A stretch of 60,094 bases of DNA from a phage: sequence record PZ445424.1. One strand, 5' to 3'. A program made the position numbers and the translations under genes. Of this stretch, positions 7,314 to 14,210 are shown in pieces. The notes beneath the pieces were generated by a model. That model ran no database searches, was not told the origin of the DNA, and worked only from the letters and a program-made list of their open reading frames with translations. Each line of letters starts with the position of its first letter. Within the stretch, counting starts at the first letter, position 1.

Positions 7314-7720
7314 TGGGATTCGGGGCGGATATTCGACGTGCAAGTCAGAAGGTACTTGTTCAGACAAGCGAGCAAGCCAAAAAAGTCGTTGTCAAGTTCA
7401 CAGAGAACGTGATACAGGATACTCCTGTTAAGACCGGACGCACAAAAGGTGGTTGGCGGTCATCCATTGGTGCGCCGTATGCAACGGAAACTATCCGCCT
7501 CGATCCTACTGGAGAGATGGCTAAAGCTGAAGCCCGAGTTGTTGCACGCCAACTACCTAATGATAAAGACTGGACTTTCTATTTTAGCAACCTGACACCA
7601 TATGCTGGCAAACTGGAGTTCTTAGGTTGGTCACAGCAAGCCCCGAACGGTATGGTTCGTATTAACGTAGCGAAGCTTCCAATGTTGATACGTCAAGCTA
7701 TAGCAGAAGGAAAACTATAA
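7313..7720 (+). CDS. Neck / tail completion protein (HK97 gp10-like, putative)
   Basis: 135 aa; contains DTPVKTGRTKGGW resembling the conserved TG-R motif of HK97 gp10-like proteins; overlapping stop-start with neighbours. Confidence 0.5.
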   Translation: MGFGADIRRASQKVLVQTSEQAKKVVVKFTENVIQDTPVKTGRTKGGWRSSIGAPYATETIRLDPTGEMAKAEARVVARQLPNDKDWTFYFSNLTPYAGKLEFLGWSQQAPNGMVRINVAKLPMLIRQAIAEGKL

Positions 7721-8169
7721 TGCTTGGATACGATTTCATTAATGATGCATTTAATAAGATGCTACGCGAAGCAGTTGGACCGGATATTGGTATAGCGTGG
7801 AAGAATAAGAAGTTCACACCTAAAGCCAACCAGATGTGGTTAAAGGCAATCAATGCTCCCGCTTCCACTTACGCTGCAACGCTAGGTGATAACGGTCTGA
7901 ATGAAATTCCAGGCTTCTACCAAATCACAGTATATAGTCCTTTAAACACTGGAATGTCTAAGCAGAATCAAATCTTGGATTCTATTCGGAAAAAGTTTAA
8001 ACTGGGCTTGCGTATCCCGTGCCCGGATGACCACACGTTACGGATTGTCAGTTTAGACTTTTCGCAAGGTGGACAAACTTCGCTGAACGATTTTACCAAA
8101 GGCGGGGTTGAAGATAACTGGGACGTTAACTTTATCACAATCTATTGGTCGGCTCGTGAGCCGAGGTAA
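7720..8169 (+). CDS. Tail terminator protein (putative)
   Basis: 149 aa ORF immediately upstream of major tail protein gene; synteny only. Confidence 0.4.
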   Translation: MLGYDFINDAFNKMLREAVGPDIGIAWKNKKFTPKANQMWLKAINAPASTYAATLGDNGLNEIPGFYQITVYSPLNTGMSKQNQILDSIRKKFKLGLRIPCPDDHTLRIVSLDFSQGGQTSLNDFTKGGVEDNWDVNFITIYWSAREPR

Positions 8170-8183
8170 GAGAGGATCTAAAT

Positions 8184-9107
8184 ATGGCTACAGGTTCACG
8201 TTATTCGTGTTATTACGTCAAAGAAGATGTGAGCAACACAACTCCAGCAAGCGCGAAGTTTACCCCGTTTCGTGTAACGAGTTCCGGTCTGGATATTAAC
8301 ATTGCGACGCTGGAGTCTGAAGAGCTGCGTGATGACGCAGAAACCGCAGACTTCCGTCTTGGCGCTCGAAGCGTTGAAGGTACGGTAACAGGCGAAATGT
8401 CATTCGGTACATTTGACGACCTCATTGCGGCAGCACTGCGCGGTGAATGGCAGGACAACGTTCTTAAAGGTGGTATTATCCGCCAGTCATTTACTTTTGT
8501 AGACTATAACGCAGATCTGCCATCTGGTAAATACACAATCTATCGCGGTTGTGAAGTTAACAGCATGACTTTCTCATTGTCTGCTGAAAACATGACCACA
8601 GTAGAGTTCGGTATTGTTGGTCGTTCTATGGAGATTGCGGAATCCTTACCTGCTGGATCTTCTATCAAAGCGCGTACAACTACTTCTCCGATGGACGGCT
8701 TCTCTGGTCGCTTGCTGGAAAACGACGAAGAGATTAGCGTTATTACGGAAATCGGTCTTACTGTTGAAAACGATATTGCACCGCGCTTTGTTGTTGGTTC
8801 TAAGTTCTCCATTGAACCGTCCGCTGGTCGCCGTGCGGTAACTGGTACAGCTAACGTTTACTTCCTGGATAACAAGCTGCGTATGAAGTATCTGGATGAA
8901 GTGGAAACTTCAATCAAGTTTGATCTGATTGACCCAAGCAATCCGGAACAAAAATACACTGTGGAAATCCCTCGCGTGAAATTCACTGAAGCCCCACGTC
9001 CTATTGACGGTGAAGGAGATATCATGCTTAATATGGGCTACCGCGGATTGCTTGACCCAACAACCGCAAGTTCCATCAAAATTACCCGCGTTTTAGCGGC
9101 AGCATAA
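8184..9107 (+). CDS. Major tail (tube) protein
   Basis: 307 aa ORF preceding tail assembly chaperone and tape measure genes; RBS GAGAGGA. Confidence 0.6.
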   Translation: MATGSRYSCYYVKEDVSNTTPASAKFTPFRVTSSGLDINIATLESEELRDDAETADFRLGARSVEGTVTGEMSFGTFDDLIAAALRGEWQDNVLKGGIIRQSFTFVDYNADLPSGKYTIYRGCEVNSMTFSLSAENMTTVEFGIVGRSMEIAESLPAGSSIKARTTTSPMDGFSGRLLENDEEISVITEIGLTVENDIAPRFVVGSKFSIEPSAGRRAVTGTANVYFLDNKLRMKYLDEVETSIKFDLIDPSNPEQKYTVEIPRVKFTEAPRPIDGEGDIMLNMGYRGLLDPTTASSIKITRVLAAA

Positions 9108-9116
9108 GGATAAGAA

Positions 9117-9524
9117 ATGACCGACACCAAAAAAGGCAAAGTTGCAGTAGCTAAAAGCTTCCGTGATTTTAAAACTGTGAGCCGGGCAAACGACCCGGCA
9201 AACACTAAGCCTATGAATGTGGTTATTCCTGGTGTAGGCGACACTGGCGAAAAACTCTACATTCGTAGCCGCTACTGCACAGAGTATCGTGACGCAGAAT
9301 TGAAAGCACAGCGTCAACTGTTGGCGCTTATGCAGGGTAAAGACGGTGAAGTAACGGATGCTATGAAGGAAGATATCCTTACCCGTTCACTGTGTAACCT
9401 TGTAGCAGGTTGGACTTTTGACGAGCCACCGACTGTTGATAACGTGTTTGAGTTCTTAACGGAGAACCCAACTGTTCGAGAAGACCTTAACGTATTTGCC
9501 GCTAAAGATAGTAATTTTTTCTAA
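9117..9524 (+). CDS. Tail assembly chaperone (G-like)
   Basis: 135 aa acidic protein directly upstream of tape measure gene; ends in slippery sequence T TTT TTC TAA. Confidence 0.55.
   Translation: MTDTKKGKVAVAKSFRDFKTVSRANDPANTKPMNVVIPGVGDTGEKLYIRSRYCTEYRDAELKAQRQLLALMQGKDGEVTDAMKEDILTRSLCNLVAGWTFDEPPTVDNVFEFLTENPTVREDLNVFAAKDSNFF
9515..9521 (+). promoter_or_regulatory. Candidate -1 programmed ribosomal frameshift slippery heptamer U UUU UUC
   Basis: Heptamer X XXY YYZ sits on the last two sense codons of the chaperone ORF; the -1 frame is open from here to the tape measure start. Confidence 0.45.
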
Positions 9525-9922
9525 AAGCGCGCAGACAGTTAATTGATAAGAAGATCCTCCAATGGGAACTAAATAGTAAAGCCCCCGGCGGGGGATCTTC
9601 TTTATTATCGCAACTGCAAAAGGTTGAGGAACAGTCTGGTAAGACGCCCCCTAAGCTTAAAGAATATCGGGAAAAGGAAATACCGCTTTGCTTCGAATAT
9701 CTATCTACTTTATTTGATGATATCTACACTGGAGGAGATTTTAGTTATACAGAATTGCACAGCTATCAAGTGACAATGGGCTTACATCTTCAACCGTACG
9801 AATGTGAAATACTGCGGCAGCTATGGCTTGAAAAGCGCGTGTCAGAAGCTGAACAAAATGCTAAACTCATGGAAAGTCAACTGCAAAATCAAAATAAAGG
9901 TAGAAGAAAAAGGAGAAGATAA
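9521..9922 (+). CDS. Frameshift extension of tail assembly chaperone (GT-like fusion, putative)
   Basis: 133 stop-free codons in the -1 frame (LKARRQLIDKK...KGRRKRRR) with no strong internal start; stop TAA overlaps the tape measure ATG (TAATG). Not in ORF track because it lacks a start. Confidence 0.45.
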   Translation, partial: LKARRQLIDKKILQWELNSKAPGGGSSLLSQLQKVEEQSGKTPPKLKEYREKEIPLCFEYLSTLFDDIYTGGDFSYTELHSYQVTMGLHLQPYECEILRQLWLEKRVSEAEQNAKLMESQLQNQNKGRRKRRR

Positions 9923-12900
9923 TGGCCGAAACCGCTTCGCTAGTAATCAGAGTTGACGCGAGAGGGATTAGTACCGCGGACTCTATGTTGCGGAACTTAG
10001 CGCGTACAGGTGACACAGCGGAGCGGTCTGCTCAACGTGTTACCTCCAGCTATAAAACATTGTCTAACACATCTAACGAACTTGCAACTGTCACAAGTCG
10101 TTTGGATGCTGCAATTGTAGGAATGATTAGCGTTGACACTATTAGCCGTGTTATATCGCTGTCTGACTCCTGGACCATCCTTACCAACAAACTTGAACTA
10201 GCTCGCATGGGTAATGAAACAGTTGCGGATTCTCAGCAACGTGTATTTGATATTGCCCAGCGTTCGCGTACAAGCTTAGAAGCAACTGCAACTCTGTACT
10301 CCCGTCTCCAGCGTGCGATGAAGAATACTGGCATGACAGGTATGGAGCTCGGGCGCATCACTGAAACAATCAACAAAGCAATGATCGTTTCTGGTGCAAC
10401 GTCCCACGAAGCAAGTGCTGCCCTTATTCAGTTTTCGCAAGCGATGGCATCCGGTGTTTTGCGCGGGGATGAATTCCGATCTGTTGCGGAACAAGCACCG
10501 CGCCTAACTCAAATCATGTCCGATGCATTAGGTGTTACCATTGGACAATTGCGTGAGCTGGCGTACAGCGGAAAGTTAACAGCTGATGTGGTTATCAAAT
10601 CGTTGTCTGGTGCTGCGGATACAATTGATAAAGAATTTAGCCGCACTATGCCAACGTTCAACCAGCAATGGACGGTTGCAACAAACAACCTGACTAAGTT
10701 TATGGGCGAATCCCAAAAGACTCAAGGTGCGGTCGCTGCATTGGGACAGACGTTTGTTGCATTATCTGAAAACTTAGGAACGGTTGTAACGGTTGGTTCA
10801 GCTTTAGCCACAGTGATTACCGCCCGTATCATTACGGCAATGCTTGCTAAGACTAAAGCGTCTATAGCTGCTGCAAAAGCATCACAAATGGAAGCTGCAC
10901 AAACAGCGGCAACTACTGCGGTGATGCAAAGCTCTATTGGCGTTACTGCACAGAAAGCGGCTGCGGATCGTGCTGCTTCGCTTGCAGCGTTACAGGTTGC
11001 TCGCGGGTCATTAGCGGTTGCTAAAGGTACGGCAGCGGAAGCGGGCGCACGTCTTGCCCTTATTAATGCTACCCGTGCGCATTCTGCGGCAATTATGGCG
11101 GACGTGCAAGCGCGGCAAGCGCTCAATGCTGCGCTTAATGCAACTGTACCAGCCGCAAGCCGGGCAGCTACAGCAATGAGCGTGCTGCGCGGTGCTATGG
11201 GGTTAATTGGTGGTCCTGTTGGTGTAGCAATGCTGGCAGCGGGTGCAATTTACTCCTATAAAGCGTCGCTGGAAGCAGGTCGTGCGGAAAACAATCAGTT
11301 TGCGGATAGTGTTGATTCTGTACGCGAAAAACTGATGCAAATGACGGAAGCTCAGCTCGCAGCTAACGCTGTCAAAGCTAGAGCAATCCTTCCTGAGCTT
11401 GAAGAGCAACTGAAGCGGGAGCAGAACGCTCTAAAATCTGCAACAGAAACACAGAAGTTCTATGAAGCACAATTAAAACGCCGTGCCGCGTCCGGCCGTG
11501 ATACAGCTAGTGCCGAGAAGAACTTACAAATTGCAACGGATAACGTCAAGCTTGCTGCCGAGCGTGCTGAAGAAGCTCAACGCCGTTACAACAATGTCTT
11601 AGAAATGACAAGCCCTGCTATCGAGAAGATAATTCCGTTAGCTCGTCAGCTTGCTGCTGATATGAAGGCTGTTCTTAACATCAAATCCGGTCCACTTATT
11701 GACGAGAAAGTCCTTGACCGTTTTAAAGGTCAGTTAGGTGACGTTAACCGTGAGATTGACGTTAACACGGTTAAGGGTGCTGGCAATGCTCGCCAAGCTG
11801 CAATCCTTAGTGGACTGTATCAGACGCTGGGCAAGGATGCAGACACCTATGGAAGTCTAATTCGCAAAGTAGCTATGGGGCAGGACGTTAGCTCAGAGGC
11901 AACAAGCGAATCCGCTAAAGAGCTTGTTAAATATGCTCAAGATTTAGCCCAAGCTCTTGGCAAAAACTACGATCTTGAAGAAGCAGAGAGAAACCGAACT
12001 AAAGCGACAAAAGACGGTATTAAAGCAGAACAACAGAACGCCAAAGTTATTGACGATTTACGCAATAAGCTTAACGAAGTAACCACAGGGGTTAAGGAAA
12101 ACGCCAAAGCGAAAGCGCAAGCGGTAGCACTTAATAAGCTCAATGCGTCTGCAACGGCTGCGGAAAAAGCAGAAGTCGTTAGTCTTGCTGCTGCAATTTA
12201 CGATGCAGAAGAAGCTCAAAAGAAACTGGACGAGCGTAAGAAGAATCGTAAAGCTGCCGAAGACTTGTTAGGGGAAGGTAGAACAGACTACGCTAAAATT
12301 GAATACGAAATGCAAGAAAAGATCATGAAGCTTCATAGGGATCAAGAAGCAGATGACCTTGAGCATTACAAACTGTATGAGGATGCTAAGACTCAAGTAT
12401 TGGCGCAAGCTAACCTTCAAAGGGAAAACCTGAATAAAGTTCTTATGAACAGGATGATATCCTTTTCTCAGGACTCGTTAGGAATTATAATGGATGGTCT
12501 GTCACAGGCTGTAAGCCAGCAGAACTTCTTTTATAAAGCCATGTTTGCCGCACAGAAAGCAATGCAAATCCCGTCAATCCTTGCCAACACGGAAACGGCA
12601 GCATCCGCGGCGCTTGCATGGGGTACACAGCAAGGCGGTGCTACAATGGGCGCAACAATGGCAGCTATAGTGAAAACTATGGGTTATGCCTCGGCTGCTA
12701 CTGTGGGCGGCTTAGCAATTGCTGGTATGGCTCACGATGGTATTGATAACGTTCCGCGTGAAGGTACATGGTTGCTGGATAAGGGTGAACGTGTACTTAA
12801 TGCTCCGTCTAATGACAAGTTAAATCGCTTCCTGGATAGTCAAGCTTCACAACAAGGTGGCGTGAATATGTCCGGTGGTGTTAGCATTGTTCAGTATATC

Positions 12901-13038
12901 ACGGTGCAAGGAAATGGCGATGCCGCACTCACACAAGCCATGCAAAAAGCAGCCCGTGATGGCGCTGAGCAGGGATATAATAAAGTTCTTAATGACTTTG
13001 CATCCCGAGGAACAATTCGTAGAACTGCAATGGGGTAA
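9922..13038 (+). CDS. Tail tape measure protein
   Basis: 1038 aa, Ala/Gln-rich helical protein with Gly-rich hydrophobic segment; canonical position after chaperone. Confidence 0.85.
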   Translation: MAETASLVIRVDARGISTADSMLRNLARTGDTAERSAQRVTSSYKTLSNTSNELATVTSRLDAAIVGMISVDTISRVISLSDSWTILTNKLELARMGNETVADSQQRVFDIAQRSRTSLEATATLYSRLQRAMKNTGMTGMELGRITETINKAMIVSGATSHEASAALIQFSQAMASGVLRGDEFRSVAEQAPRLTQIMSDALGVTIGQLRELAYSGKLTADVVIKSLSGAADTIDKEFSRTMPTFNQQWTVATNNLTKFMGESQKTQGAVAALGQTFVALSENLGTVVTVGSALATVITARIITAMLAKTKASIAAAKASQMEAAQTAATTAVMQSSIGVTAQKAAADRAASLAALQVARGSLAVAKGTAAEAGARLALINATRAHSAAIMADVQARQALNAALNATVPAASRAATAMSVLRGAMGLIGGPVGVAMLAAGAIYSYKASLEAGRAENNQFADSVDSVREKLMQMTEAQLAANAVKARAILPELEEQLKREQNALKSATETQKFYEAQLKRRAASGRDTASAEKNLQIATDNVKLAAERAEEAQRRYNNVLEMTSPAIEKIIPLARQLAADMKAVLNIKSGPLIDEKVLDRFKGQLGDVNREIDVNTVKGAGNARQAAILSGLYQTLGKDADTYGSLIRKVAMGQDVSSEATSESAKELVKYAQDLAQALGKNYDLEEAERNRTKATKDGIKAEQQNAKVIDDLRNKLNEVTTGVKENAKAKAQAVALNKLNASATAAEKAEVVSLAAAIYDAEEAQKKLDERKKNRKAAEDLLGEGRTDYAKIEYEMQEKIMKLHRDQEADDLEHYKLYEDAKTQVLAQANLQRENLNKVLMNRMISFSQDSLGIIMDGLSQAVSQQNFFYKAMFAAQKAMQIPSILANTETAASAALAWGTQQGGATMGATMAAIVKTMGYASAATVGGLAIAGMAHDGIDNVPREGTWLLDKGERVLNAPSNDKLNRFLDSQASQQGGVNMSGGVSIVQYITVQGNGDAALTQAMQKAARDGAEQGYNKVLNDFASRGTIRRTAMG

Positions 13039-13041
13039 CAT

Positions 13042-13626
13042 ATGCTCACTTGGCCCGAAGAAATTAGACCGTCCGAAATGGAATGGTATCTTGTTTCAAA
13101 CTCTGTAGAATTTACAAGCCCCTTCAATGGGGCTTCACAAACTGTATCCTATCCTGGGTCACGATGGGAAGCAACATTAACGTTCAGCAATTTAAATGAC
13201 TGGCAATCCAGAAAGATTGAATCAACGTTAGCTAAGCTTGACGGTAAAGCTGGTCGTATCATGCTTCAGGATTTTGGTCGCTGGGGTCGTGCACCGATTG
13301 GATCACCTGTGGTTAATGGCGCAAACAATACGGGGACAACTTTATCAACCAAAGGTTGGACTCCTAACAGAAAGGTTCTATGGGAAGGGGATTACATCGC
13401 AGTAAACAATGAATTAAAATTAATAACCGAAGATGCTTGGAGCGATTCTTCTGGTAACGTGATTTTAAATATTGCCCCAATGCTGAGGACCATTCCACCA
13501 AACGGGGCTAAAATTGAGACGCAGAAACCACAAGGAGCTTTTCGTTTATCTGACAACACTAACGGGGTTAAGCGTCAACCAGCTTTTAATAATTCATTTA
13601 CTTTAAAATTCTCGGAGGCGTTCTAA
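13042..13626 (+). CDS. Minor tail protein (distal tail, lambda M-position)
   Basis: 194 aa ORF directly after tape measure gene. Confidence 0.5.
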   Translation: MLTWPEEIRPSEMEWYLVSNSVEFTSPFNGASQTVSYPGSRWEATLTFSNLNDWQSRKIESTLAKLDGKAGRIMLQDFGRWGRAPIGSPVVNGANNTGTTLSTKGWTPNRKVLWEGDYIAVNNELKLITEDAWSDSSGNVILNIAPMLRTIPPNGAKIETQKPQGAFRLSDNTNGVKRQPAFNNSFTLKFSEAF

Positions 13627-14210
13627 TGCTATTCAGCCCTTTCAGCAATACGCTTCTTAATGCGATGGAGCAGCCAAACGTTAGTTTGGTCCTTGCTGCG
13701 GAAATTGACTTTCCTTCTGGCGTAACGCGTGTACATACTGGCACAGGTGTTGTTGTTATTAATGGACAGACGTTCCTGGGTGTCGGTACGCTTGGCGACG
13801 TAGGATCTGTAACGGAAGAAAACAGCACAAGCTCCAGCACAATGTCCATGGCGCTAAGCGGTCTGGATATGAGTCTTGTTGGGGAGACGTTAAACGAAGA
13901 AGTTATCGGACGTAATGTTGTCTGCTATATTGCAGTGATGAACGATCAAGGTAACGTCATTGCTGCTAATATTTTGTTTGAAGGTTTCATTACAGACACC
14001 GCATTACAAGCAGGTCAACAGAATGCATTGAGTTATGTTATTTCCAACGTGTTTGAGCGTTGGTCACAAGGTTTACCGGATCGCTATACGGATGAAAGTC
14101 AACAGCGTTTATATCCGGGCGACCGTTTCTTTAGATATATTGCACAAATGGCTGAACGTTCAATCTTTTGGGGGAGTAAAAAAGATGCGCCAGGGTTCTC
14201 CTATGAGTAA
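13626..14210 (+). CDS. Minor tail protein, lambda gpL-like
   Basis: 194 aa; N-terminal region (VSLVLAAEIDF) resembles gpL N-terminus; overlapping stop-start. Confidence 0.5.
   Translation: MLFSPFSNTLLNAMEQPNVSLVLAAEIDFPSGVTRVHTGTGVVVINGQTFLGVGTLGDVGSVTEENSTSSSTMSMALSGLDMSLVGETLNEEVIGRNVVCYIAVMNDQGNVIAANILFEGFITDTALQAGQQNALSYVISNVFERWSQGLPDRYTDESQQRLYPGDRFFRYIAQMAERSIFWGSKKDAPGFSYE

What the first reader, a model, noticed from the sequence alone, without database searches (positions are those of the whole stretch)
9515..9922. Probable -1 programmed ribosomal frameshift fusing the tail assembly chaperone to a 133-codon extension ending at the tape-measure start
The chaperone ORF ends ...AAT TTT TTC TAA, so a U UUU UUC slippery heptamer sits on its last codons. 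The -1 frame from 9521 is stop-free for 133 codons and its TAA overlaps the tape-measure ATG (TAATG). By chance such an open stretch is expected only about 0.2% of the time. This matches the conserved G/GT arrangement of siphovirus tail chaperones, yet the extension has no start codon and is missing from the ORF track. A GC hairpin with a U-tract (9581-9600, CCCCC-GGC-GGGGG ATCTTCTTTATT) lies inside this frame and could act as a partial terminator.
Basis: seen in the sequence. Interest (0 to 1): 0.6.

Follow-up and report, generated by a model that had tools for sequence, protein, structure and literature searches.

The report
Tail chaperone G/GT ribosomal frameshift
This is the ordinary, already documented -1 ribosomal frameshift that siphophages use to make a little long tail-assembly chaperone (GT) alongside a lot of the short one (G), here in Escherichia phage WildeMaa, whose own database record fails to annotate the fusion.

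Summary
The window is Escherichia phage WildeMaa (Seuratvirus). The 135-codon chaperone ORF (9117-9524) ends AAT TTT TTC TAA, so an in-phase U UUU UUC heptamer sits at 9515-9521. The -1 frame opens exactly at 9515 and runs 133 codons past the shift to a TAA (9920-9922) that overlaps the tape-measure ATG.

The -1 frame is translated from the heptamer onward. Third-codon-position substitutions switch frame there. dN/dS is 0.08-0.18 in the -1 frame and about 1 or more in the other two, including the 255 nt that contain no start codon. The fused 268-aa protein matches PHROG 569 end to end, and the extension matches Pfam Phage_TAC_18.

In 72 of 72 related metagenomic loci the T part lies in the -1 frame, nearly always with a canonical heptamer.

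The same frameshift is annotated as ribosomal slippage in phage Seurat, so it is already known. WildeMaa's record lists only a 48-aa fragment.

It is the tip of a 17-bp hairpin (9544-9607) that is conserved and favoured by codon choice across Queuovirinae. That hairpin starts 22 nt after the heptamer, and its role is unknown.

The parts
8184..9107 (+). Tail tube (major tail) protein gene, immediately upstream of G
   Evidence: Pfam Phage_tube_2, E 5e-41. Annotated 'tail subunit' in MZ501112.
9117..9524 (+). G: tail assembly (tape measure) chaperone ORF, 135 aa, the 0-frame product
   Evidence: ORF list and translation. PHROG 569 positions 11-126, E 4e-25, and PHROG 313 'tail assembly chaperone', E 4e-11. 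Annotated 'putative tape measure chaperone'.
9512..9514 (+). TAA in the -1 frame directly before the heptamer. It limits the productive shift window to 9515-9524.
9515..9521 (+). Slippery heptamer T TTT TTC in X XXY YYZ phase
   Evidence: Invariant in 11 Seuratviruses. The same or another canonical heptamer occurs at the homologous place in 12 phage lineages and 60 of 72 IMG/VR loci.
9522..9524 (+). 0-frame stop TAA abutting the heptamer (possible 'shifty stop' context)
   Evidence: This adjacency is shared with Nonagvirus 9g/HdK1 and Klebsiella phage K9PH25C2, but not with more distant clades (stop 36-93 nt later).
9521..9922 (+). T extension: 133 codons in the -1 frame plus TAA. No start codon before TTG 9755 / ATG 9776.
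   Evidence: dN/dS is 0.08-0.18 in this frame only. Pfam Phage_TAC_18 scores 38.9 bits against a cutoff of 27, on extension residues 35-104. PHROG 569 positions 130-256, E 1e-46.
9117..9922 (+). GT fusion product, join(9117..9521, 9521..9922), 268 aa
   Evidence: Matches PHROG 569 end to end, E 5e-76. Colinear, ungapped alignment across the junction in 11 lineages. The equivalent joined CDS is annotated in Seurat and SA126VB.
9544..9607 (+). Long hairpin: 17-bp stem with one bulge plus inner helices, starting 22 nt after the heptamer. Function unknown.
   Evidence: MFE and pairing probabilities. Arms invariant in 11 Seuratviruses, p = 4e-5. More stable than 498 of 500 synonymous recodings. Hairpins at the equivalent place in other Queuovirinae.
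9582..9594 (+).
   Evidence: Flagged as terminator-like by the consensus scan. -9.1 kcal/mol and about zero equilibrium probability. Not conserved in STP-SP5.
9910..9915 (+). AAGGAG Shine-Dalgarno for the tape measure gene, inside the last codons of T
   Evidence: Read from the sequence, 6 nt before ATG 9922. Seurat annotates a ribosome-binding site at the same place.
9922..13038 (+). Tape measure protein gene
   Evidence: Pfam TMP_3, E 5e-59. Annotated as such.

Best explanation
Genes 9117-9524 and 9521-9922 are the G/GT tail-assembly-chaperone pair of a siphophage. Most ribosomes translate G (135 aa) and terminate at UAA 9522-9524. A minority slip back one base on U UUU UUC (9515-9521). This can happen by tandem re-pairing of the two tRNA-Phe, or by slippage of the P-site tRNA-Phe from UUC to UUU while the adjacent stop codon waits in the A site. 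Both routes give the same protein. The slipped ribosomes read CUA AAA GCG... for 133 more codons and stop at the UAA that overlaps the tape-measure AUG, producing a 268-aa GT fusion (...DSNFF-LKARRQ...).

By analogy with lambda gpG/gpGT, the shared G part would bind the tape measure protein. The T part would recruit the tail tube protein, with a fixed low GT:G ratio set by the frameshift efficiency.

Shown here: the anatomy of the site, translation of the -1 frame from the heptamer onward, homology of the fusion, and conservation across the family. Inferred: the ribosomal nature of the slip, its efficiency, and the protein-binding roles.

A codon-choice-selected hairpin at 9544-9607 follows the site. 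It may tune the shift or the fate of the mRNA, but at 22 nt it is too far away to act like a classical stimulator.
For: 1. Anatomy. An in-phase canonical heptamer sits inside a 10-nt overlap window, the only place where a shift can be productive. The +1 frame closes after 6 codons. In the 0 frame, the codons read show that readthrough of UAA would add only 5 codons.

2. Coding signature. In G, substitutions against Skure and STP-SP5 pile up at the G-frame third position (50 of 66 and 72 of 118). After 9521 they pile up at the -1-frame third position (24 of 32 and 39 of 64). dN/dS is 0.08-0.18 in the -1 frame against 0.97-4.1 in the other two frames. This also holds for 9521-9775, which has no start codon.

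3. Homology. The fusion matches PHROG 569 over 1-268 against profile positions 11-256 of 256, E 5e-76. The extension matches Pfam Phage_TAC_18 above its cutoff. tblastn homology to Nonagvirus starts at extension residue 1.

4. Conservation. An in-phase T TTT TTC or T TTT TTA is present in 12 lineages down to about 21-25% protein identity, and the -1 frame stays open for about 80-132 codons past the G stop, to or just past the tape-measure start. The alignment is ungapped across the junction, with FF invariant or nearly so. In 72 of 72 IMG/VR loci T is in the -1 frame. Heptamers vary among TTTTTTC, AAAAAAG, AAATTTT and TTTTTTA but keep the X XXY YYZ rule.

5. Gene order is tail terminator, tube protein, G, T, tape measure.

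6. Prior annotation. SA126VB also carries a joined CDS.

7. Literature. U_UU.U_UU.C shifts at more than 0.1% in E. coli without any stimulator, and U_UU.C is the second most shift-prone tetramer (PMC4066793). The lambda G/GT mechanism and its 30:1 ratio are reviewed in PMC5009743.
Against: There is no experimental evidence for this phage or its genus: no junction peptide, no reporter assay, no efficiency measurement.

No Shine-Dalgarno-like stimulator is seen upstream (my reading of the sequence). No stable structure starts at the classical 5-9 nt spacing; the stable stem begins 22 nt downstream.

The T6 run could also support a one-U insertion by RNA polymerase, which would give an identical protein. 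Sequence analysis cannot separate the two mechanisms in this genome.

The G part matches Pfam TAC families only below threshold (Phage_TAC_4, E 0.05). No lambda gpG or gpT family is hit.
Confidence: 0.88

Rival explanations
1. Transcriptional slippage. RNA polymerase inserts one extra U on the T6 run (9515-9520), and standard translation of that minority mRNA yields the same GT fusion.
For: The site is a homopolymer run: T6 here and T7 in most relatives (CTT TTT TTC). AAAAAAG sites in other clades are also runs. Runs of A or T are known polymerase slippage sites (PMC5009743). The protein product would be indistinguishable from the frameshift product.
Against: About 23 of the 72 IMG/VR loci use A AAT TTT, C AAT TTT or G GTT TTT. 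These have runs of only 4-5 identical bases but still fit ribosomal A-site or tandem re-pairing.

The run is always in the X XXY YYZ phase, although conservation of the Phe-Phe residues confounds this point.

From general knowledge, efficient bacterial polymerase slippage usually needs runs of about 8-9 or more. The downstream RNA structure enriched across the family fits ribosomal stimulation, not polymerase slippage, whose known stimulatory hairpins lie upstream.
Confidence: 0.07
2. There is no recoding. The downstream region is expressed on its own from an internal start. This is how the WildeMaa record annotates it (48-aa ORF from ATG 9776), or it could start at TTG 9755.
For: MZ501112 and several relatives annotate exactly such a small ORF as 'putative tape measure chaperone'. 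Skure annotates the TTG start.
Against: The 255 nt upstream of ATG 9776 show strong purifying selection in the -1 frame (dN/dS 0.08-0.13) yet hold no ATG/GTG/TTG before 9755.

The Phage_TAC_18 domain spans extension residues 35-104, and a start at residue 86 would cut it. Homology to distant relatives begins at residue 1-3 of the extension, and the fusion aligns colinearly.

No Shine-Dalgarno sequence precedes 9776 (AGCUAUCAAGUGACAAUG). Annotated starts in relatives fall at non-homologous positions.
Confidence: 0.03
3. One reading: the GC hairpin at 9582-9594 plus the U-rich tract is a partial intrinsic terminator that lowers transcription into T and the tape measure gene.
For: The consensus scan flags it: 5 GC pairs, a 3-nt loop and the tail AUCUUCUUUA. 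Because it is local, it could form first during transcription. Lower expression of the genes downstream of the tube protein and G would make stoichiometric sense.
Against: The stem is short (-9.1 kcal/mol). The U-tract is interrupted and starts with A.

The stem competes with the inner UGGG/CCCG helix and with the 17-bp stem, which takes both the GGGGG and the U-tract. Its equilibrium probability is about 0.

The stem decays in STP-SP5. Nonagvirus and Klebsiella relatives keep a hairpin but have no U-tract. The palindrome is largely a by-product of the Pro-Gly-Gly-Gly codons. Terminator-like hits here are not enriched over shuffles.
Confidence: 0.1

Closest known systems
Bacteriophage lambda gpG / gpGT (-1 PRF at G GGA AAG; Levin, Hendrix & Casjens 1993), and the conserved tail-chaperone frameshift of long-tailed dsDNA phages (Xu, Hendrix & Duda 2004), as reviewed in PMC5009743
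   Same: Two ORFs lie between the major tail gene and the tape measure gene. The second ORF is in the -1 frame, has no start of its own and overlaps the end of the first. A canonical heptamer sits in the overlap. The result is a short abundant product plus a rare C-terminally extended fusion. T ends at the tape-measure start.
   Different: No detectable sequence homology to lambda G or T families. The heptamer is U UUU UUC, not G GGA AAG. The 0-frame stop abuts the heptamer, so G and GT differ by zero G residues. A selected hairpin lies 22 nt downstream.
Escherichia phage Seurat CPT_Seurat13/14 'tape measure chaperone' (KM236243, joined CDS with ribosomal slippage), and the same in vB_EcoS_SA126VB
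   Same: Same genus. The query region 9000-10100 is 97.5% identical in nucleotides. The heptamer, frames and 268-aa product are identical.
   Different: Only the annotation differs. WildeMaa's record has G plus a 48-aa fragment ORF and no joined CDS.
E. coli dnaX and IS3/IS911-type -1 PRF cassettes (heptamer plus a hairpin or pseudoknot 5-9 nt downstream, sometimes with an upstream Shine-Dalgarno sequence)
   Same: A heptamer of the X XXY YYZ class is followed by an unusually stable, selected RNA hairpin. Many other clades of this chaperone family do have a helix starting 4-9 nt after the heptamer.
   Different: In WildeMaa and other Queuovirinae the stable stem begins 21-28 nt after the heptamer, and there is no upstream SD-like element. 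Only weak, non-conserved outer pairs come closer.

Membership tests
Tail assembly chaperone G/GT -1 frameshift pair (Xu-Hendrix-Duda class) | Located between the major tail (tube) protein gene and the tape measure gene | tested here: met
   Phage_tube_2 at 8184-9107 and TMP_3 at 9922-13038.
Tail assembly chaperone G/GT -1 frameshift pair (Xu-Hendrix-Duda class) | The downstream ORF is in the -1 frame, overlaps the end of G, and lacks its own start or ribosome-binding site | tested here: met
   The -1 frame is open from 9515 to 9919. The first start codon is TTG 9755. G is the only such case among 14 in the window.
Tail assembly chaperone G/GT -1 frameshift pair (Xu-Hendrix-Duda class) | Canonical slippery heptamer X XXY YYZ, in phase, inside the overlap | tested here: met
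   T TTT TTC at 9515-9521.
Tail assembly chaperone G/GT -1 frameshift pair (Xu-Hendrix-Duda class) | The arrangement is conserved in diverged relatives | tested here: met
   12 of 12 phage lineages and 72 of 72 IMG/VR loci have T in the -1 frame. 60 of 72 have a canonical heptamer and the rest a near-canonical one.
Tail assembly chaperone G/GT -1 frameshift pair (Xu-Hendrix-Duda class) | The extension is under protein-coding selection in the -1 frame | tested here: met
   dN/dS is 0.08-0.18 in the -1 frame against about 1 or more in the others, and the third-position substitution bias switches at 9521.
Tail assembly chaperone G/GT -1 frameshift pair (Xu-Hendrix-Duda class) | Sequence membership in a curated tail-assembly-chaperone family | tested here: met
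   T matches Pfam PF23812 Phage_TAC_18 at 38.9 bits against a cutoff of 27. GT matches PHROG 569 at E 5e-76. G matches PHROG 313 at E 4e-11. G against Pfam Phage_TAC_4 is sub-threshold, E 0.05.
Tail assembly chaperone G/GT -1 frameshift pair (Xu-Hendrix-Duda class) | The fusion protein is actually made, at a low fixed ratio, and is required for tail assembly. G binds the tape measure protein and T binds the tube protein. | not testable with these tools
   This needs mass spectrometry, reporter assays or genetics. No such data were found for Seuratvirus; the Seurat paper only lists the gene.
Lambda gpG / gpT sequence families specifically | Detectable homology to lambda G or T Pfam families | tested here: not met
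   No such family appears at E <= 1 in the Pfam scan. The profile search of PDB sequences gave only spurious hits.
Intrinsic (Rho-independent) terminator | A stable GC-rich stem-loop followed directly by a run of U, conserved among relatives | tested here: inconclusive
   The consensus scan matches at 9582-9594. Against this, the stem is only -9.1 kcal/mol, is out-competed by the long hairpin, has an interrupted U-tract, decays in STP-SP5, and has no U-tract counterpart in Nonagvirus.
Classical -1 PRF 3' stimulatory structure (dnaX / IS3 type) | A stable hairpin or pseudoknot starting about 5-9 nt after the heptamer | tested here: not met
   The hairpin is present and selected, but its stable stem starts 22 nt after the heptamer. 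Only weak, non-conserved outer pairs start at 9-14 nt.

The most novel reading that the evidence does not exclude
The hairpin at 9544-9607 is conserved across Queuovirinae (Seuratvirus, Nonagvirus, the Klebsiella clades) and in the related Vidquintavirus Vid5, and it is favoured by codon choice. It sits 21-28 nt after a heptamer that abuts or lies within 18 nt of the 0-frame stop.

On the most novel reading it is a functional RNA element of a kind not described for G/GT genes. It could be a frameshift modulator acting at a non-canonical distance together with the 'shifty stop'. Alternatively it could be an mRNA processing, stability or anti-polarity element. Such an element would set the expression step between the abundantly needed tube and G proteins and the sparsely translated T region plus tape measure gene.
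Probability: 0.2. Interest if true: 0.45.

Novelty: already known. Interest (0 to 1): 0.15.

Why it matters
The biological point is textbook: the frameshift fixes the GT:G ratio needed to build a tail of the correct length.

The practical value is for annotation. The WildeMaa (Bas23) record and most Seuratvirus and Nonagvirus records split or omit GT. They list a 48-aa fragment, two small ORFs, or nothing, while Seurat and SA126VB annotate the joined CDS. The correct feature is join(9117..9521, 9521..9922) in window coordinates, which is MZ501112 join(9652..10056, 10056..10457).

The family survey also gives a clean comparative data set for the Phage_TAC_18 / PHROG 569 chaperones. All 72 loci have T in the -1 frame, the heptamers interchange, and downstream RNA structure is enriched.

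The one open item is the selected hairpin at an atypical distance from the shift site.

Tried and rejected
- **Rfam.** The whole window at gathering threshold gave no hit. The region 9400-9750 at E <= 10 gave only sub-threshold miRNA-precursor-shaped hits, which merely reflect a long hairpin.
- **tRNAs.** None in the window.
- **PDB sequence search with the GT profile.** Only spurious hits, a designed repeat protein and DNMT3.
- **Structure prediction.** Not run. The diverse alignment A1 contains sequences the tool would refuse, and the result would not change the verdict. The large protein-database searches were skipped for the same reason.
- **Sense versus antisense folding.** I used this to decide between an RNA structure and a DNA palindrome. 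There was no asymmetry: mean -28.9 against -29.5 kcal/mol, p = 0.6, so it is uninformative.
- **Strict covariation of the hairpin.** Only 3-4 distinct sequences are available per clade, and the register differs between clades. The Nonagvirus-like set has 3 compensatory pairs and several breaks. This is suggestive, not conclusive.
- **Pseudoknot search.** I looked for pairing between the invariant spacer 9522-9543 and the hairpin loop and found none (-3.2 kcal/mol).
- **Upstream Shine-Dalgarno-like stimulator.** None seen in GCCGCTAAAGATAGTAA, by reading the sequence.
- **Other recoding routes.** The +1 frame closes after 6 codons. Stop-codon readthrough would add 5 codons before the next TAA. 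Both are rejected.
- **Two adjacent 194-aa ORFs downstream of the tape measure gene.** I checked them for tandem duplication. They are unrelated: a distal tail protein and a tail protein.

Full report
**Identity of the window.** Megablast of 9000-10100 finds Escherichia phage WildeMaa (Bas23, MZ501112.1; Seuratvirus, Queuovirinae) at 100% identity, plus 34 relatives. Window coordinate equals record coordinate minus 535. The local gene order is tail terminator (7720-8169), tail tube protein (8184-9107, Phage_tube_2), the 135-codon ORF (9117-9524), a 400-nt stretch with no long conventional ORF, and then the tape measure gene (9922-13038, TMP_3).

**Observation.**
- The ORF ends AGT AAT TTT TTC TAA, so T TTT TTC at 9515-9521 is in the X XXY YYZ phase.
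- The -1 frame has a TAA at 9512-9514, opens exactly at 9515, and is stop-free until TAA 9920-9922, which overlaps ATG 9922. The only place where a shift can be productive is therefore the heptamer itself.
- The +1 frame closes after 6 codons. Readthrough of the 0-frame stop would add 5 codons.
- A 133-codon open stretch is expected in 0.045% of cases from window composition, 0.009% from local composition, and occurred in 13 of 200,000 shuffles.
- Long open -1 frames after a stop are common here, because the next gene often lies in that frame. Among the 14 such cases on the + strand, G is the only one with no start codon near the stop: the first TTG is at +233 nt and the first ATG at +254 nt.

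**Is the -1 frame translated from the heptamer?** Yes, on three independent lines of evidence.

1. *Substitution pattern.* Against Skure and STP-SP5, changes in G fall on the G-frame third position (50 of 66; 72 of 118). After 9521 they fall on the -1-frame third position (24 of 32; 39 of 64). dN/dS in the -1 frame is 0.08-0.18, against 0.97-4.1 in the other two frames. This holds for 9521-9775, which has no start codon.
2. *Homology.* The 268-aa fusion matches PHROG 569 from end to end (E 5e-76). G covers profile positions 11-126 and the extension covers 130-256. Extension residues 35-104 match Pfam Phage_TAC_18 above its cutoff. tblastn matches to Nonagvirus and other genera begin at extension residue 1-3, upstream of any annotated start.
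3. *Conservation.* In 12 phage lineages an in-phase T TTT TTC or T TTT TTA lies in the overlap window, even though its distance to the G stop varies from 0 to 93 nt. These are Seuratvirus, Nonagvirus, Amoyvirus, Vidquintavirus, Craquatrovirus, Bradleyvirinae and a Stenotrophomonas phage, with protein identity down to about 21-25%. Fusions built at the heptamer align colinearly with no gap across the junction, and the Phe-Phe is invariant or nearly so. Of 73 IMG/VR loci, 72 have both parts, and in all 72 T is in the -1 frame. Sixty have a canonical in-phase heptamer (TTTTTTC, AAAAAAG, AAATTTT or TTTTTTA). The other 12 have C AAT TTT or G GTT TTT.

**Mechanism.**
- The interchange of different heptamers that all obey the re-pairing rule, including A AAT TTT which is not a homopolymer, favours ribosomal slippage over polymerase slippage for the family.
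- U_UU.U_UU.C shifts at more than 0.1% in E. coli without any stimulator, and U_UU.C is the second-best tetramer (PMC4066793).
- In Seuratvirus, Nonagvirus and one Klebsiella clade the 0-frame stop abuts the heptamer. Single P-site slippage at a 'shifty stop' would give the same product.
- The functional model, in which G binds the tape measure protein, T recruits the tube protein and the ratio is about 30:1, is taken from lambda (PMC5009743). It is inferred here, not shown.

**Prior knowledge.** Seurat (KM236243) annotates a joined 'tape measure chaperone' CDS with 'ribosomal slippage (10236)', a position that falls in the same heptamer. SA126VB does likewise. WildeMaa, the other BASEL Seuratviruses (KurtStettler, SeppeHuegi), Greed and CSP1C annotate only a 48-aa ORF (window 9776-9922). 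KS_A3 has two small ORFs, and CAjan has none. The finding is therefore already known; only the WildeMaa annotation is deficient.

**The hairpin.**
It is only -9.1 kcal/mol, and it encodes Pro-Gly-Gly-Gly.
- The minimum-energy fold is a 17-bp stem, 9544-9560 paired with 9590-9607, plus inner helices. It is -26.3 kcal/mol, and the z-score of the region is about -3.4. It consumes both the GGGGG and the 'U-tract'. At equilibrium the small hairpin has probability about 0.
- The core arms are invariant in 11 Seuratviruses. Zero of 27 arm sites vary, against 123 of 369 elsewhere (p = 4e-5). For third codon positions the figures are 0 of 8 against 71 of 124 (p = 0.0016). Meanwhile the small stem decays in STP-SP5.
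- With the protein held fixed and codons resampled, the native sequence folds better than at least 99% of recodings in 7 of 8 lineages: six Queuovirinae-type lineages plus Vidquintavirus Vid5.
- Hairpins of different sequence flank the same W-x-L...P-x-G codons in Nonagvirus, the Klebsiella clades and Vid5, with a few compensatory pairs.
- Family-wide, the 100 nt after the heptamer are more structured (mean z -2.29) than four control windows (-0.24 to -1.01).
- In most other clades a helix starts 4-9 nt after the heptamer, which is the classical spacing. In Queuovirinae and Vid5 it starts at 21-28 nt, or about 14 nt counting WildeMaa's weak outer pairs.
- Its role here is unresolved. It could be a frameshift modulator at an unusual distance, an mRNA stability or processing element, or a guard against polarity in the sparsely translated T region.
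- It is not a known Rfam family, and folding shows no strand asymmetry.

**Verdict.** This is a real and correctly read feature, an ordinary member of the G/GT tail-chaperone frameshift class, already annotated in the same genus. Interest is low. The conserved distal hairpin is a modest open question.

Noticed in passing
window 9776-9922 (MZ501112 10311-10457, bas23_0015): The WildeMaa record annotates a 48-aa ORF from an internal ATG as 'putative tape measure chaperone' instead of the joined GT CDS. Annotation of this region is inconsistent across Seuratvirus and Nonagvirus: some records have a joined CDS, others a 48-aa ORF, a TTG-started ORF, two small ORFs, or nothing.
   Followed up: yes
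window 9510-9603: Nucleotide variability among 11 Seuratviruses drops to about 7% in 9510-9569, against about 23-63% (mostly 30-50%) elsewhere in G and T. The spacer 9522-9537 (UAAAAGCGCGCAGACA) is fully invariant. This constraint is not explained by dual coding, because only 10 nt overlap.
   Followed up: partly
IMG/VR loci L060, L072, L077, L078, L080, L083 (heptamer near position 1144-1344 of each locus): One clade of this chaperone family uses A AAT TTT, with C AAT TTT and G GTT TTT as variants. It has a long hairpin starting 5-6 nt after the heptamer and closing about 84 nt downstream. The stem sequence differs between members, making this a textbook-looking -1 PRF cassette.
   Followed up: partly
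L011 689-1321 (+) = Aeromonas phage AP1 MT713136 about 240638-241270: A 254-kb Straboviridae record holds a stand-alone ORF with a strong T-domain match (HMM E 1e-36) and no G part upstream. It lies on the strand opposite to the annotated CDS AP1_0455. This may be a mis-called strand, a horizontally acquired fragment or an assembly chimera.
   Followed up: partly
window 9521-9919: The T region is A-rich and C-poor (A 36%, C 18%, against 28% and 22% for the window). Its product ends in a strongly basic tail, KGRRKRRR, whose codons also carry the tape-measure Shine-Dalgarno sequence AAGGAG at 9910-9915.
   Followed up: no
window 13042-13626 and 13626-14210: Two adjacent genes encode proteins of exactly 194 aa. 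I checked them for tandem duplication and they are unrelated: PHROG 1302 distal tail protein and PHROG 2048 tail protein.
   Followed up: yes
L007 1087-1778 (phage 9g KJ419279): The 9g record notes a KilAC antirepressor domain (PF03374) inside its tape measure protein. I did not check whether WildeMaa's tape measure protein has one too; the Pfam scan showed only TMP_3 and Phage_HK97_TLTM.
   Followed up: no
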